Shown: piece after piece, positions 21,981 through 31,647 of the stretch
How the letters are laid out: the number at the start of each line of letters is the position of its first letter
Position numbering within the stretch: the stretch's first letter is position 1
Source: Flaccisagitta enflata
Lineage: Eukaryota
Direction: 5' to 3'
Assembly (NCBI GenBank): GCA_965153355.1
Contig: OZ231126.1
Location: forward strand, 25,358,001 to 25,422,000
Length of the DNA: 64,000 nt
Program-made: the position numbers and the translations under genes
Notes under the pieces: model-generated
The model's input: the letters and a program-made list of their open reading frames with translations, nothing else
Database searches by the model: none
Told to the model about the DNA's origin: nothing

Positions 21981-22612
21981 CAATTTCCCCGACGAACAAA
22001 TTAAGATCTCTGAAGCAAAATGAACCCGCTGACTTTTTAGAATCAATTTCCCCACAACTCGATTTGACTGATTAGATTTAGATCCCAAGACGGAGACTCC
22101 CATGTCATCACTTACTGATAGTTGACTAATCGATACAAATGTGTGTTTGATCAAGGAAATGCAGTGTACCTGACCTCATGTCTCATGTTCTGCCGCTGCC
22201 CTAAAAGAAGAAGAAGAAGAAGAAGAAGAAGAAGAAGAAGAAGAAGAAGAAGAAGAAGAAGAAGAAGAAGAAGAAGAAGAAGAAGAAGAAGAACGAAATA
22301 GAAGAAGAAGAAGAAAAAGAAAAAGAAAAAGAAAAAGAAAAAGAAAAAGAAGAAGAAGATGTAGAAAAAGAAGAAGAAGAAGATGTAGAAAAAGAAGAAG
22401 AAGAAGATGAAGAAGAAGAAGAAGAAGAAGAAGAAGAAGAAGAAGAAGAAGAAGAAGAAGAAGAAGAAGAAGAAGAGGAAGAAGAAGAAGAAGAAGGAGA
22501 AGGAGGAGGAGGAGGAGGAGGAGGAGAAGAAGAAGAAGAAGAAGAAGAAGAAGAAGAAGAAGAAGAAGAAGAAGAAGAAGAAGAAGCAGAAAAAGAAAAA
22601 GAAGAAGAATGA
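21981..22612 (+). pseudogene. Possible decayed exon (Glu-rich tail), product unknown; partly duplicated at 27870-28399
   Basis: One frame reads NFPDEQIKISEAK*TR*LFRINFPTTRFD*LDLDPKTETPMSSLTDS*LIDTNVCLIKEMQCT*PHVSCSAAALKEEEE with all five stops TGA. Donor-like GAG|GTACGT follows the (GAA)n tract. Confidence 0.35.
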
Positions 22613-23064
22613 GGTACGTAGTAGAAATAGAAATCATCGGAACATCATCATCGATAATTATGATTCAAGCTACCCTTTTTCCTTTTTTCTTTCTTTCTGA
22701 CAATGGCGAGTCTGGTTGACCAAAGAGAAACTGAGGCTGATATCATTGATGATGTTTTGACTGAGATAATGTGGTGCAACTCAACTAAAAAAAAAAAGCC
22801 TGCTTATTGATTCATAAAACACATACTGAAAAGATTTCAACTTTTTTCATTGTGGCCTTTTAAAAGATTTTCAAAATATCTTTTAATCTAGACCAATCCC
22901 AGGTCTGTATCTCAAATGTTTTAGAAGCTATAGCCCTGCAAAGAGAAGCACTAATTTGCTGAAATGCAATTTTACATAGGGATTGTGAATCTGGAATGGG
23001 CAAAGATTTCACTGAAACTAATGTCATTTCTAAACGAAACAAGGCCGGATACACTGCTACCCTA

Positions 23065-23367
23065 CAGTCAGCGGACAAAACATAATTGGTATATATAACA
23101 TACCATTGGTTTTGATCCAACATACTGATAGTAAACAAAATATTTTATGCAACAACCAGTGGTTTGAATAACACTCGGCTGTAATGTTACAAAATTGCAT
23201 TACAGCCCGCTGTAATTCTAACAACCCGTTGTTGAATACAATATTTTATTATTATAGCTGTAACTTGAGCAACTGATTGTCGCATATAATATTTTGTTTT
23301 TGAGCAGTATGTTGGATCGAAGCCAGTGGCATGATATATATACCTATAGTGTTTTGTCCACTGACTG
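23065..23367. mobile_element. Palindromic MITE with 4-bp TSD (Academ-like signature, tentative) inserted in a family A HINE; duplicate at 28851-29162
   Basis: CAGTCAGCGGACAAAACA... / ...TGTTTTGTCCACTGACTG, inverted over most of its length. CCTA at 23061-64 and 23368-71. The host HINE reads through when it is removed. Confidence 0.75.
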
Positions 23368-23713
23368 CCTAGTCGCGTGCGGGTGGGCAGGAGCAGTGCT
23401 GGAGAATCTCACTAGGGCATCTGGGCAGGAGCAGTATGCTCAAAAAAGCTAAAAAACGCCGAAAAAAGTTAAAAGGGGACCAACCAACCAACCGACCAAC
23501 CAACCAACCGACCAACCGACCAACCGACCAACCGACCAACCGACATAGTGGGGTGTAGAGTCATGTAGCACGCAACTAAAAAGAAAGGATTTCCAGATTG
23601 GCCCCAAGTAAGAAAACTTTCAAAGGGCTTTCAAATAGTCTAAGATTAATTTTCAAAATTAGCCATTAAAAAGTGCGTCTCTTTTTTTTATCCGTGTGGT
23701 AGATATAGGATTA

Positions 23714-27868: not shown

Positions 27869-27869
27869 A

Positions 27870-30800
27870 TTAGATCCCAAGACGGAGACTCCCATGTCAT
27901 CACTTACTGATAGTTGACTAATCGATACAAATGTGTGTTTGATCAAGGAAACGCAGTGTACCTGACCTCATGTCTCATGTTCTGCCGCTGCCCTAAAAGA
28001 AGAAGAAGAAGAAGAAGAAGAAGAAGAAGAAGAAGAAGAAGAAGAAGAAGAAGAAGAAGAAGAAGAAGAAGAAGACGAAATAGAAGAAGAAGAAGAAAAA
28101 GAAAAAGAAAAAGAAAAAGAAAAAGAAAAAGAAAAAGAAAAAGAAAAAGAAAAAGATGAAGAAGATGTAGAAAAAGAAGAAGAAGAAGATGTAGAAAAAG
28201 AAGAAGAAGAAGATGAAGAAGAAGAAGAAGAAGAAGAGGAAGAAGAAGAAGAAGAAGAAGAAGAAGAAGAAGAAGAAGAGGAGAGGAGGAGGAGGAGGAG
28301 GAGGAGAGGAAGAAGAAGAAGAAGAAGAAGAAGAAGAAGAAGAAGAAGAAGAAGAAGAAGAAGAAGAAGAAGCAGAAAAAGAAAAAGAAGAAGAATGAGG
28401 TACGTAGTAGAAATAGAAATCATCGGAACATCATCATCGATAATTATGATTCAAGCTACCCTTTTTCCTTTTTTCTTTCTTTCTGACAATGGCGAGTCTG
28501 GTTGACCAAAGAGAAACTGAGGCTGATATCATTGATGATGTTTTGACTGAGATAATGTGGTGCAACTCAACTAAAAAAAAAAAGCCTGCTTATTGATTCA
28601 TAAAACACATACTGAAAAGATTTCAACTTTTTTCATTGTGGCCTTTTAAAAGATTTTCAAAATATCTTTTAATCTAGACCAATCCCAGGTCTGTATCTCA
28701 AACGTTTTAGAAGCTATAGCCCTGCAAAGAGAAGCACTAATTTGCTGAAATGCAATTTTACATAGGGATTGTGAATCTGGAATGGGCAAAGATTTCACTG
28801 AAACTAATGTCATTTCTAAACGAAACAAGGCCGGATACACTGCTACCCTACAGTCAGCGGACAAAACATAATTGGTATATATAACATACCATTGGTTTTG
28901 ATCCAACATACTGATAGTAAACAAAATATTTTATGCAACAACCAGTGGTTTGAATAACACTCGGCTGTAATGTTACAAAATTGTAGCATTACAGCCCGCT
29001 GTAATTCTAACAACCCGTTGTTGAATACAATATTTTATTATAGTACAGCTGGCTGTAACTTGAGCAACTGATTGTCGCATATAATATTTTGTTTTTGAGC
29101 AGTATGTTGGATCGAAGCCAGTGGCATGATATATATACCTATAGTGTTTTGTCCACTGACTGCCTAGTCGCGTGCGGGTGGGCAGGAGCAGTGCTGGAGA
29201 ATCTCACTAGGGCATCTGGGCAGGAGCAGTATGCTCAAAAAAGCTAAAAAACGCCGAAAAAAGTTAAAAGGGGACCAACCAACCAACCGACCAACCAACC
29301 AACCGACCAACCGACCAACCGACCAACCGACCAACCGACATAGTGGGGTGTAGAGTCATGTAGCACGCAACTAAAAAGAAAGGATTTCCAGATTGGCCCC
29401 AAGTAAGAAAACTTTCAAAGGGCTTTCAAATAGTCTAAGATTAATTTTCAAAATTAGCCATTAAAAAGTGCGTCTCTTTTTTTTATCCGTGTGGTAGATA
29501 TAGGATTAGAGTTAAATCCCGCTCTAACAAATTTCAGGGGGGCAATAATCTTTTTTATTATAGGGGGAATTCTGTCATAGCCAACATAAGAAAGATATAA
29601 GAAAATTGATTGAAAGGACTCAGAATTAGTATTTGTTACAAATGGAATTTTGTTTTAAGCGGGTCCGTCAGAGCAGGTTCAACTGTAACTAAGGCAAAGA
29701 AAAAAACTAAACGACATGTTTTTCATTATTTTACACCCAAGCAATGAGAAAAACATAACAAAAATCTGTGACCATTTTGAAGCTCTGCGAAAGATCTTTC
29801 AAATGAGATCTTGCTGGTAGTTATAGCTTTATTCGTTTCGAAATGGCATTGGAGTGAAGACAGGTTGTCGGGAATTGGAAAAATCCATCAAACGATCTTC
29901 ATGCTTTTAGTTTGTTGTAACATAAAAACTAAATGCTTTGAGTTAAAAATTTCGTTCTTGGCGCCATTTTAAAGAAAACTCGAAACTCATTATTTGCTCA
30001 TGGATATCAAGTTGCTGTGACAATTCTGAGTTGCACAATTAATAAAAACGTTGAGACTAAATTTAATAGTAGGAAAAAAAGCCGAAATTTGCACTTTTTT
30101 TACAGTCAGTGATATTTTTCTTCAATCCGATGCCATTTCTAAACGAAGAAAGCTACTGAGACCAGCAATGTCGCACTTGGAAGATTTTTTTGAAGATCTT
30201 TCAAATGGTCATAGATTTTCTATAGTTCAAGCCTTTGGTTTGATTTTTGCAGTTGTGCCTTTTGTAAAATCAGAATCATTTCCATGTAGCTGTTTGTCTT
30301 GTTTACGGTACCCACGCCCTGCCTAAATAGGTGGTGATTGAAGTCAAAGGAGGGAGCAGGGCAGCGGCCCCAAAGGGGTTTTCTCCTTCTGGCGATTGAG
30401 ATTTAGGCATAAGGGCTAGGATTTGGGCCTCAAGGAAGAGATTTGGGCTTTGAGGCTGGGATTTGGGCCTAAAGGCTGAAGTTTGAGAGGGGGGCTGAGA
30501 AGAAGAAAGAGAAAGAGAAATTTCACCAGATGTGTGAAAGCAAAGGTCATCGACCCCTACGGGGCCGCTGCCCAAAAACCGCTATATAAGCTGATCCAAG
30601 ATTTCGCATTGCAGACTTCAGTAGGCAACTAAAGACGATTAAAAAGCATGATCGAGTCTCAACTTAGGGTGTGTTTCTAGCAATGACCGAAAACGCGTTT
30701 GTTCCTGTGAAACGCGTTTACAGCGTGAACACATTTTCAAGAATTTCAACTGCCCCATGAGGGAGTGAGCGAAGTGAGTGGCTGAGCACGTCTGGTCCGG

Positions 30801-31647
30801 AGTGGTGTGTCCATAGACGCACAAAAAAAAGTATGTGACTGATGGACCATCCAACCAACCAACCAACCAACCAACCAACCAACCAACCAACCAAGGGACG
30901 GACGGACAAAGCAGGGTGTAGAATCGCCTAGCACATGACTTAAGACATTGATAATGATATAACAACAACAACAACAACAACAGCAACCACAACAACAACA
31001 GCAACCACCACAACCACCACAACAACAACAACAACAACAACAACAACAACAACAACAACAACAACAACAACAACAACAACAACAACAACAACAACAACAA
31101 TAACAACAACAACAACAACAACAACAACAACAACAACAACAACAACAACAACAACAACAACAACAACAACAACAACAACAACAACAACAACAACAACAAC
31201 AACAACAACAACAACAACAACAGCAACAACAACAAAAACAACAGCAACAACAACATCGACAACATCAAGTAGAGTAGCGTAGCATGAGACTCAAAACCGC
31301 TTACACCAAAAACAGCTTAAAGAATGAAGCATGACTGACCAACCAACCAATTAACCAATAGTCTAAGAAAGCAGGGTGTAGAGTCGCATAGAATGCGACT
31401 TAAAAAGATTGAGACTTGATTTGGTGGACAAATGGCAAATGCGCATAAGGTTACTTGGATATATTGAGAAAATGAAGCGATACTTCCGGAAATGAAAAAC
31501 AAAATTGTCAGCATTCAACTTCAAGTAAGGTTGATTGGCGTGGATGAGGGGCAAATCGCACACACACACACACACACACACACACACACACACACACACA
31601 CACACACACACACACACACACACACACACACACACACAGTTGTTGTT
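27870..31647 (+). repeat. Direct segmental duplication, copy 2
   Basis: See copy 1. Begins immediately after the hAT right end. Confidence 0.95.

What the first reader, a model, noticed from the sequence alone, without database searches (positions are those of the whole stretch)
22071..31647. 3.75-kb direct duplication with a hAT excision footprint at one junction and the hAT end at the other
Seen: copy 2 starts right after the hAT end as GACCTCTA|ATTAGATC-CCAAG. The same site in copy 1 reads ATTAGAT+TTAGATC-CCAAG (22071-22084), i.e. two ATTAGATC target copies with the two central bases lost. Known: this is the typical Ac/Ds-type footprint, and maize Ac alternative transposition generates tandem duplications. 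Inference: an excised chromatid and an element-bearing chromatid were joined, giving a rarely readable record of transposition-driven duplication in an animal-like genome.
Basis: partly seen in the sequence, partly recalled or inferred. Interest (0 to 1): 0.72.

Follow-up and report, generated by a model that had tools for sequence, protein, structure and literature searches.

The report
Transposon-linked 3.75-kb duplication with excision scar
A 3.75-kb stretch of repeat-rich, non-coding DNA occurs twice with a small cut-and-paste transposon between the copies and a likely excision scar beside the first copy, which fits a known way that transposons duplicate neighbouring DNA; long reads have not confirmed it.

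Summary
Window 22078-25830 and 27870-31647 are direct copies: 97.3% over 3805 columns, and about 0.1% substitutions outside microsatellites. They are separated by a 2039-bp spacer.

Most of the spacer is one non-coding terminal-inverted-repeat element, E (25948-27868). Its ends belong to a very abundant repeat family in the source organism. E's right end abuts ATTAGATC plus copy 2. Copy 1 starts with ATTAGAT+TTAGATC, which is two 8-bp units each missing one central base.

This layout (scar, copy, element, one target duplication, copy) is what I derive for one element whose two ends, on sister chromatids, transpose together. That is hybrid-element insertion in the P-element literature and alternative transposition in the maize Ac literature (PMC3744419).

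Three caveats:
It sits between copy 1 and E's left end, so that junction was made by error-prone repair and not by clean insertion.
- hAT membership is only inferred. No second copy of E could be fetched, there is no transposase, and the target motif does not fit.
- No spanning reads could be examined.

The same letters also read as a TTAGAT hexamer doubled by slippage. Verdict: the reading is partly supported, the mechanism is of a known kind, and interest is moderate.

The parts
22071..22084 (.). Footprint-like site ATTAGAT+TTAGATC at the left edge of copy 1. It equals two ATTAGATC units minus one base each, and it also equals A+(TTAGAT)x2.
   Evidence: Read. TTAGATTTAGAT is unique in the window. 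An X1 contig (record 8, depth 80.6) lies on 27870-27996 and stops exactly at 27870, as a contig from this junction would. This is an inference from coordinates.
22078..25830 (+). Copy 1 of the duplicated segment (3753 bp). It is a mosaic of microsatellites and old repeat fragments with no gene.
   Evidence: 97.3% to copy 2; list of differences; 55 partial matches to other repeats in the window, so it is not one coherent mobile element; its only ORFs of 130 aa or more lie on the microsatellite tracts.
25829..25947 (+). A1: a 119-bp extra piece between copy 1 and the element's left end. It is a near-exact direct copy of the element's interior (27310-27420), with 1 substitution, a 7-bp indel and 1 extra C. 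TT microhomology at its left junction.
   Evidence: (D19). A1 and A2 share G, A and C at 25895, 25899 and 25906, where other genomic copies laid there carry A, T and T (table 3).
25948..27868 (+). Element E: a 1921-bp non-autonomous terminal-inverted-repeat element, hAT-like. The left end is CAGACCGACCGAA (alternative register TACAG... from 25946). The right end, reverse-complemented, is TAGAGGTCGACCGAA. There are CTTCGG subterminal repeats, and inner inverted (GA)n at 26438-26510 against (CT)n at 27453-27525.
   Evidence: TIR 12 of 15 without gaps from 25946, and this is the only + strand match of 12 or more of 15 in the window. 7 of the window's 11 CTTCGG lie in 27560-27868. Summed word depth in X1 is 161,037 at 25920-26000 and 183,653 at 27783-27863, against 179 in unique 27945-27996. 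An X7 contig stops at 25948 and an X3 contig stops at 27868. 0 of 7 ORFs match Pfam.
26518..27013 (.). A MITE-like repeat nested inside E. It has inverted ends at 26601-26636 and 26974-27009 and 20-bp internal tandem repeats.
   Evidence: copies at about 3375-4039, 9244-9734, 13726-14154, 14782-14944, 24619-24782 = 30414-30577, and 51628-52186. Summed word depth is 6 to 8 million in X1.
27310..27420 (+). A2: the interior segment of E that served as template for A1 (or is its sister copy). It continues uninterrupted into TATTTATAAATTT.
27869..27876 (.). ATTAGATC: the candidate 8-bp target-site duplication kept at E's right end, which is also the first bases of copy 2.
   Evidence: The 8 bases left of E (CTATACTA, or ATCTATAC in the other register) do not match it.
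27870..31647 (+). Copy 2 of the duplicated segment (3778 bp).
31000..31760 (+). (AAC)n at about 31000-31330 and (GTT)n at 31640-31760, an inverted microsatellite pair able to form a stem of about 120 bp. The right breakpoint of the duplication lies 3 units into the (GTT)n arm.
   Evidence: as single-stranded DNA the free energy is -157.84 kcal/mol, against -98.42 +/- 4.97 for 20 shuffles (z -11.96, 0 of 20 shuffles as good)..

Best explanation
This is a real, very young segmental duplication made by transposase-dependent breakage at the two ends of one non-autonomous, hAT-like element (E), followed by error-prone joining.

Most likely course (inferred): the progenitor was upstream-ATTAGATC-E-ATTAGATC-S-(GTT)n-downstream. 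After replication, E's left end on one sister chromatid and E's right end on the other were cut together (hybrid-element or sister-chromatid type of alternative transposition). The two empty donor flanks were rejoined, leaving ATTAGAT-TTAGATC. The chromatid piece that begins with E's left end was then attached behind S, at a break 3 units into the hairpin-prone (GTT)n tract.

The product is upstream-scar-S1-[junction]-E-ATTAGATC-S2-downstream. The junction was not a clean strand transfer. It carries 119 bp copied from E's own interior (template switching or filler synthesis, entered through a TT microhomology).

A two-step version gives the same product and cannot be separated from the one-step version here: element-mediated duplication to E-S-E-S, then ordinary excision of the first E.

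Shown: the duplication, E's termini at the boundaries, the 7+7 pattern, and the filler and its source. Inferred: the 8-bp target duplication, the hAT assignment, sister-chromatid involvement, and the order of events.
For: 1. Copies 22078-25830 and 27870-31647 are 97.3% identical over 3805 columns, with only 3 isolated substitutions in about 2.7 kb of non-microsatellite sequence.
2. Copy 2 begins one base after a genuine element terminus. An X3 contig of another family member stops at 27868, and summed word depth falls from 183,653 (27783-27863) to 179 (27945-27996).
3. The left terminus is equally sharp. The only match of 12 or more of 15 to the reverse-complemented right end on the + strand of the 64 kb is at 25946. 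An X7 contig stops at 25948, and depth jumps from 1,457 to 161,037 there.
4. E's two flanks do not match each other (CTATACTA or ATCTATAC against ATTAGATC), so E does not sit in a simple insertion site.
5. Copy 1 begins with ATTAGAT+TTAGATC, exactly two copies of the 8 bases that flank E's right end, each minus its inner base. Small 1-2 base deletions or substitutions are the commonest Ac/Ds footprints (PMC3744419, passage on Figure S1). hAT footprints in animal cells are small indels from hairpin repair (PMC3499496, abstract and passages).
6. The layout matches the published signature of alternative-transposition duplications: two copies, each started by the element, with the middle element keeping only one original TSD (PMC3744419, sections 10-11).
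7. A1 (25829-25947) copies E's interior 27310-27420 with 1 substitution. It shares three variant letters with A2 that other genomic copies lack. It was therefore templated locally, and its single difference is compatible with the age of the large duplication.
8. A weak hint: an X3 metagenome contig (record 24, 255 nt, 4 differences) lies on 27866-27948 and then departs. That start point is what an empty site ...GACTG-ATTAGATC-CCAAG would give. This rests on coordinates only; I did not see the letters.
Against: - The 14 letters at 22071-22084 are equally A+(TTAGAT)x2. Two-copy hexamer repeats occur 60 times in 64 kb.
- The 8-bp target duplication of the family could not be checked. No other E copy is in the window, and the one metagenome scan gave 3 loci that share only the 20-base query word.
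- ATTAGATC has T at position 2 but T, not A, at position 7, unlike the hAT target consensus forms listed in PMC3014272 (NTCTAGAN, NTNTANAN, NTRNNYAN).
- The left end reads CAGAC or TACAG, an imperfect YARNG.
- There is no transposase remnant (0 of 7 ORFs with a Pfam match), and no transposase match among the 12 of the window's 54 ORFs of 130 aa or more that I scanned.
- The clean model predicts that E's left end abuts copy 1 directly. It does not, because 119 bp intervene.
- The maize work says hemimethylation restricts which Ac ends can pair (PMC3744419, section 11), so a single-element sister event is not the documented maize route.
- The contiguity of the assembly across 21.5-32 kb is unverified.
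Confidence: 0.5

Rival explanations
1. Replication-based or end-joining duplication (fork stalling and template switching, microhomology-mediated break-induced replication, or NHEJ) without any transposase. A fork collapses at the (AAC)n/(GTT)n hairpin and the nascent end switches template twice. The coincidence with E's ends is chance or is due to E's inverted structure, and TTAGAT-TTAGAT is simple slippage.
For: - The right breakpoint lies in a strongly hairpin-prone inverted microsatellite pair (z -11.96).
- Junction J1 has a 2-base TT microhomology, and a 119-bp templated insertion from 1.4 kb away is typical of template switching.
- Hexamer doublings are fairly common here (60 in 64 kb).
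- The region is saturated with microsatellites.
Against: - Three separate boundaries fall on or one base from E's two termini and on a sequence that repeats E's flanking 8-mer. Each such hit is of order 1 in 1000 by position.
- There is no microhomology to explain a switch exactly to E's first base.
- E's arms are only weakly complementary (65% over 90 columns, TIR 12 of 15), so they are a poor structural barrier.
Confidence: 0.2
2. Assembly artefact: two haplotypes of one locus (one with E, one with an empty or scarred site) were laid in tandem, so the duplication does not exist in any chromosome.
For: - No spanning reads could be examined. Only k-mer contigs were available, and the copy 1-spacer junction fell in a part the tool skipped.
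- The two copies differ by about 0.1% plus microsatellite lengths, which alleles could also show.
- In X1 the unique bin 27945-27996 sums to 179, of which one contig has 80.6. Two forms at similar depth fit either two copies or two alleles.
Against: - There is no N or gap.
- A haplotype carrying E at ATTAGATC would have the upstream flank left of E, not A1. The artefact therefore needs two further invented junctions, (GTT)3|A1 and A1|E-left, neither of which lies in a shared repeat that could mislead an overlap.
- A1 has its own 7-bp insertion and an extra C relative to A2, so it is not a copy-paste of the same reads.
Confidence: 0.1
3. S, or E+S, is itself a mobile unit (a macrotransposon using E's left end and a surrogate end, or a composite element), and the two copies are two insertions and not a local duplication.
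For: - Part of S (25596-25700) has at least one diverged paralogue elsewhere in the genome. A variant contig at depth 431.7, against 159 for the reference form, carries 8 substitutions and a 3-bp deletion.
- S ends in microsatellites of variable length.
Against: - S is a mosaic of unrelated repeat fragments.
- There is no target duplication around either copy or around E+S2.
- The sequence after copy 2 does not continue A1's interrupted sequence.
- The two copies are far closer to each other than to the paralogue.
Confidence: 0.05

Closest known systems
[quoted passage not shown]
   Same: There are exactly two direct copies, and an element terminus sits precisely at the start of the second copy. 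The middle element keeps only one of the original 8-bp flanks and its other flank does not match. The size (3.75 kb) lies between the three natural maize cases (116-1262 bp) and the nine de novo cases (8157 bp to about 5.3 Mb).
   Different: No element precedes copy 1 here, only a scar. The paper says such cases would escape its search. Only one element is needed in my reading, whereas the maize route needs two nearby elements with reversed ends. A 119-bp templated filler separates copy 1 from the element. The host looks like a marine animal-type genome and not a plant, and hAT membership is unproven.
Hybrid element insertion of Drosophila P elements (Gray, Tanaka & Sved 1996; Preston, Sved & Engels 1996). 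I know these only through the reference lists and summaries in PMC2775673 and PMC3744419; the originals were not held.
   Same: Left and right ends of one element on sister chromatids (or homologues) act together and insert nearby. This gives a duplication or the reciprocal deletion next to a retained element. It is the geometry I derive for this locus.
   Different: It involves a different superfamily and is known from experimental crosses, not as a fixed genomic relic. The product structure I compare with is my own derivation, not read from those papers.
Ordinary hAT excision footprints and abortive gap repair with filler DNA. Footprints: PMC3499496, abstract and passages, and the PMC3744419 passage. 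Filler in Ac/Ds and P-element repair is recalled, not read here.
   Same: Both 8-bp target copies are kept with 1 base lost from each at the centre, and a templated insertion from nearby element sequence sits at a transposase-made end.
   Different: Here the scar and the filler lie 3.75 kb apart and frame a duplication, instead of marking a simple empty donor site.

Membership tests
hAT superfamily (for element E) | 8-bp target-site duplication | tested here: inconclusive
   E's own flanks differ (CTATACTA or ATCTATAC against ATTAGATC). The only support is the 7+7 pattern at 22071-22084. No other family copy could be fetched.
hAT superfamily (for element E) | Terminal motif YARNG and short imperfect TIRs (PMC3014272, passage) | tested here: inconclusive
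   The right end, reverse-complemented, is TAGAG and fits. The left end is CAGAC (from 25948) or TACAG (from 25946), each fitting 4 of 5. The TIR matches 12 of 15 without gaps.
hAT superfamily (for element E) | Transposase with a hAT-type catalytic and dimerisation domain, in the element or an autonomous partner | tested here: not met
   Of the spacer's 27 ORFs of 45 aa or more, I scanned 7 against Pfam at E<=0.1 and 0 of 7 matched. Of the window's 54 ORFs of 130 aa or more, I scanned 12 and none gave a transposase match; 2 of 12 had sub-threshold unrelated hits. E is non-autonomous, and a partner elsewhere in the genome could not be sought because no genome is held.
hAT superfamily (for element E) | Palindromic target preference of the nTnnnnAn type (forms NTCTAGAN, NTNTANAN and NTRNNYAN in PMC3014272, Table 1 passage) | tested here: not met
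   ATTAGATC has T at position 2 but T at position 7. This is a single site, so it weighs little.
Alternative-transposition tandem duplication (RET/HEI type) | Exactly two direct copies, the second initiated precisely by an element terminus | tested here: met
   The terminus at 27868 is supported by a family contig that ends there.
Alternative-transposition tandem duplication (RET/HEI type) | The middle element keeps one original TSD, and its other flank does not match | tested here: met
   ATTAGATC is on the right only.
Alternative-transposition tandem duplication (RET/HEI type) | The first copy is initiated by the same element with both TSDs (or, if it excised, by a footprint of them) | tested here: inconclusive
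   ATTAGAT+TTAGATC is at 22071-22084. It fits a footprint, but it is also a TTAGAT doubling (60 such hexamer doublings in 64 kb).
Alternative-transposition tandem duplication (RET/HEI type) | The element's other terminus is joined directly to the end of copy 1 (target site, strand transfer) | tested here: not met
   A 119-bp templated piece (25829-25947) intervenes.
Alternative-transposition tandem duplication (RET/HEI type) | A reciprocal deletion product that shares the 8-bp target | not testable with these tools
   This needs population samples or sister lineages.

The most novel reading that the evidence does not exclude
The locus is a one-event relic of hybrid-element (sister-chromatid) transposition by a single hAT-like element in a marine animal-type genome. 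Donor scar, retained target duplication, captured 3.75-kb duplicate and a polymerase-made filler would all be preserved in readable form. Because the family is extremely abundant and the event very recent, this route could be a regular source of segmental duplications in that genome.
Probability: 0.3. Interest if true: 0.6.

Novelty: new variant of a known kind. Interest (0 to 1): 0.4.

Why it matters
Tandem duplications are usually put down to unequal recombination or replication errors. Direct creation by cut-and-paste transposons has been shown de novo in maize and in Drosophila crosses, but I know of only three natural relics, all in maize (PMC3744419); my two literature searches for more returned only the maize and rice Ac/Ds work.

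A readable natural case in an animal-type genome, with the scar still present, would show that the mechanism also works outside those systems. It would also give a search pattern (scar - copy - element - one TSD - copy) that existing screens miss. The filler shows how such events can be finished by error-prone repair. The segment holds no gene, so the local functional impact is probably nil.

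Tried and rejected
- **Whole-genome search:** no genome is held for this window.
- **Laying reads on 20500-33500:** The tool's message suggested asking for a part, so I laid 25596-27996.
- **What could not show:** all four runs were short k-mer contigs, so no spanning, strand or copy-number test was possible. The copy 1-spacer junction (25736-25859) was skipped by the tool as a repeat and stayed without cover. The bins 26973-27134 and 27378-27539 had little or no cover.
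- **Marine-metagenome runs:** those holding under 0.2 of the words mostly reflect the abundant repeats. I draw no habitat conclusion from them.
- **Fetching other E copies:** the metagenome scan with E's left-end 20-mer gave 3 loci, and all matched only in the 20 query bases. No other copy of either E arm or of A lies in the window.
- **Notes of this scan:** nothing for this genome, place or sequence. One unrelated phage note came up by words.
- **TA (Tc1/mariner-type) target duplication:** TA does flank CAGACC...GACCTC on both sides, but a family contig stops at 25948 without the TA, and the copy 1 boundary shows no such scar. Rejected.
- **TTA/TAA (PIF-type) target:** the copy 1 boundary lacks TAATTAGATC. 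Rejected.
- **Shifted register with the palindrome CTAATTAG (27866-27873) as TSD:** this gives a less parsimonious scar and conflicts with the family contig that ends at 27868. Rejected.
- **A1 as E's native flank:** rejected, because A1 shares private variants with E's own interior.
- **Simple later insertion of E between two pre-existing tandem copies:** rejected, because there is no matching TSD.
- **Papers:** one search failed on a term that was too short. The P-element originals PMC1207712 and PMC1207714 are not held.

Full report
**What is there**

A blastn of the window against itself shows one strong direct repeat in this area. 22078-25830 matches 27870-31647 at 97.346% over 3805 columns, with 22 mismatches and 27 gap openings, and the window has no N. 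The copies are 3753 and 3778 bp and are separated by 2039 bp (25831-27869).

A base-by-base alignment shows that nearly all differences are length changes and shuffles inside microsatellites: (GAA)n at about 22205-22610, (AAC)n at about 25068-25595, and (CA)n. In roughly 2.7 kb of ordinary sequence I count three isolated substitutions (22160, 22917, 24432) and three indels (3, 6 and 16 bp). The duplication is therefore very young.

The duplicated segment S is not a gene and not one coherent mobile element. It is a patchwork of fragments that have diverged relatives elsewhere in the window (55 partial matches), and its only long ORFs lie on the microsatellite tracts.

The whole area lies in the 26-kb loop of a large foldback. 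The foldback's arms are arrays of a 137-bp satellite, 5207-9166 inverted against 35307-39381.

**The junctions**

- **Copy 1, left:** ...TTTGACTG ATTAGAT TTAGATC CCAAG (22071-22084).
- **Copy 2, left:** ...CGGTCGACCTCTA | ATTAGATC CCAAG (element end 27868; ATTAGATC 27869-27876).
- **Right ends:** both copies end (CA)n CAGTTGTTGTT. Copy 2 continues into a long (GTT)n (31640-31760). Copy 1 continues into TTATATAAAATTTG....

**What the spacer is**

The spacer is not uniform.

- From 25948 (or 25946) to 27868 it is one element, E.
- The reverse complement of its right end (TAGAGGTCGACCGAA) matches the left end 12 of 15 from 25946 (TACAGACCGACCGAA). That is the only + strand match of 12 or more of 15 in the 64 kb. 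About 0.8 such hits are expected by chance in the whole window by my estimate, and about 0.03 within the spacer.
- Seven of the window's eleven CTTCGG hexamers lie in the last 309 bp of E.
- A (GA)n at 26438-26510 and a (CT)n at 27453-27525 are inverted to each other, with similar flanks (30 of 37).
- A MITE-like repeat with its own inverted ends is nested at 26518-27013. It has at least six other copies in the window.
- E has no coding capacity. Of its 27 ORFs of 45 aa or more, I scanned 7, and 0 of 7 matched Pfam. Of the window's 54 ORFs of 130 aa or more, I scanned 12 and none gave a transposase match.

**Public reads**

One search found two runs of one organism that hold 0.53 and 0.23 of the sampled words, plus marine metagenomes with small shares. 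All runs are short k-mer contigs, so they cannot span anything, and summed depth is not a copy number. They do show the following.

- **Depth profile.** In X1, unique S sequence sums to 179 (27945-27996). E's left end sums to 161,037-165,434 (25920-26081), E's right end to 183,653 (27783-27863), E's inner parts to 5,500-47,000, and the nested MITE to 6-8 million. E's ends therefore belong to a very abundant family, and the two ends have similar depth.
- **Left terminus.** A 520-nt contig of X7 lies on 25948-26078 with 2 differences and then departs.
- **Right terminus.** A 237-nt contig of X3 lies on 27788-27868 and then departs. Together with the X7 contig this places the family's termini at 25948 and 27868.
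- **Scar junction.** A 197-nt X1 contig (depth 80.6) lies on 27870-27996 without a difference. Its preceding 38 letters do not fit E. Its start at exactly 27870 is what the copy 1 (scar) junction would give.
- **Possible empty site.** A 255-nt X3 contig lies on 27866-27948 with 4 differences and then departs. A start at 27866 is what an empty site GACTG-ATTAGATC-CCAAG would give.

The last two points are read from coordinates only and are weak.

25829-25947 (A1) lies between copy 1 and E's left end. It is a direct copy of E's own interior at 27310-27420 (A2), with one substitution, a 7-bp indel and one extra C.

A2 runs on undisturbed into TATTTATAAATTT, while A1 is cut off and followed by E's first base. 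The left junction of A1 shares TT with both partners. A1 and A2 share G, A and C at 25895, 25899 and 25906, where other genomic copies laid there read A, T and T. A1 was therefore templated locally and is not a random family member.

**Mechanism**

Four boundaries need explaining:
- (a) the start of copy 2 coincides with E's right terminus plus ATTAGATC;
- (b) the start of copy 1 reads ATTAGAT+TTAGATC;
- (c) the end of A1 coincides with E's left terminus;
- (d) the end of copy 1 and start of A1 is a microhomology junction inside (GTT)n.

Three of the four involve E's ends or E's flanking 8-mer.

Take two sister chromatids, each U-T-E-T-S-x-D, where T is ATTAGATC. Suppose they are cut at E's left end on one sister and at E's right end on the other. 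The free flanks U and S-x-D rejoin with a small loss, giving the scar. The piece that starts with E's left end joins behind S at x. The product is U-scar-S-x-E-T-S-x-D. This is my own derivation. It corresponds to hybrid element insertion as summarised in PMC2775673 and PMC3744419 (passages).

It reproduces the observed order exactly, apart from A1. A1 means that junction (c)/(d) was finished by synthesis-dependent end joining or template switching rather than by strand transfer.

The break at x lies three units into a (GTT)n tract. Together with the (AAC)n 300-400 bp upstream, this tract can form a stem of about 120 bp: -157.8 kcal/mol as DNA, against -98.4 +/- 5.0 for 20 shuffles. That makes it a plausible fragile site. 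This last step is inference.

A two-step path gives the same letters: an element-mediated duplication to E-S-E-S, as in the maize cases, followed by ordinary excision of the first E.

**Comparison with what is known**

Zhang, Zuo and Peterson (PMC3744419; I read the abstract, sections 10 and 11, and passages) isolated nine Ac-induced tandem duplications. They also found three natural ones next to other maize hAT elements. Their signature is:
- exactly two copies;
- each copy initiated by the element;
- the first element with both 8-bp TSDs;
- the middle element with only one.

They add that cases in which one element later excised would be missed, and that an excised element would betray itself by a footprint. 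The present locus is that missed class.

The commonest Ac/Ds footprints are 1-2 base changes or deletions (same paper, Figure S1 text). hAT footprints in animal cells are small indels from hairpin repair (PMC3499496, abstract and passages). hAT elements are defined by 8-bp TSDs and YARNG termini (PMC3014272, passage).

**Against hAT membership**

- The left end fits YARNG only 4 of 5.
- ATTAGATC does not fit the palindromic target forms listed for lizard hAT families in PMC3014272.
- No transposase is present.
- The 8-bp length rests on this one locus.

Other superfamilies that make 8-bp duplications are, from recall, P, Merlin and some Mutator-like elements. They are not excluded by any test here, though their usual termini differ.

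**Rivals**

- **Pure template switching.** It explains the filler and the microsatellite breakpoint, but it does not explain three boundaries tied to E's ends.
- **Haplotype mis-join.** It would need two further invented junctions in non-repetitive sequence, and the window has no gap. Without spanning reads it stays open.
- **A mobile S or E+S unit.** It lacks target duplications, and S is a mosaic.
- **Slippage.** The scar is also A+(TTAGAT)x2. Such hexamer doublings occur 60 times in 64 kb, so slippage at that exact base has odds of about 1 in 1000, before asking why it repeats E's flank.

**Verdict**

A transposase-linked duplication is the best reading (about 0.5).

It is a natural example, with a twist, of a mechanism already demonstrated in maize and Drosophila. 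It is moderately interesting and has no evident functional consequence.

Noticed in passing
window 5207-9166 and 35307-39381: Two arrays of about 4 kb of a 137-bp satellite in inverted orientation (about 92-93% identity between the arms). They form a giant foldback whose 26-kb loop contains the whole finding.
   Followed up: partly
window 26518-27013; also about 3375-4039, 9244-9734, 13726-14154, 14782-14944, 24511-24784 (= 30306-30579), 51628-52186, 34312-34358: A MITE-like family with inverted ends of about 36 bp (GGGGCAGCGGCCCCGAAGGGGCCGATGACC...), an internal array of 20-bp tandem repeats, and GA- or GAA-type microsatellites starting right at its ends. Summed word depth in the source organism's runs is 6-8 million, far above everything else laid.
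   Followed up: partly
window about 31000-31330 against 31640-31760, and 32892-33073: Long (AAC)n and (GTT)n tracts in inverted arrangement. As single-stranded DNA, 30980-31770 folds into a stem of about 120 bp (z -12 against shuffles). A second (GTT)n of 180 bp lies 1.7 kb further on.
   Followed up: partly
window 32051-32428: A 167-bp unit containing a (GAT)n tract is present twice in tandem (32072-32228 and 32239-32395, 97% identical).
   Followed up: no
window 21464-21897; relatives at 15494-15701, 12799-12907, 34206-34315: A short repeat family carrying GACC/GACA-type tetranucleotide tails, in two adjacent copies (21483-21562 and 21691-21770, 83% identical) just upstream of copy 1. It is possibly SINE-like but was not examined.
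   Followed up: no
window 27866-27873: E's last three bases plus the first five flank bases form the perfect palindrome CTAATTAG, which would fit the nTnnnnAn hAT target form. I judged it coincidental, because a family contig ends at 27868 and the resulting scar would be less parsimonious.
   Followed up: yes
window 25596-25700 (= 31410-31515): The source organism's runs hold a diverged paralogue of this part of S (8 substitutions and a 3-bp deletion within about 60 bases) at higher summed depth (431.7) than the reference form (about 159). Parts of S therefore exist elsewhere in the genome.
   Followed up: no
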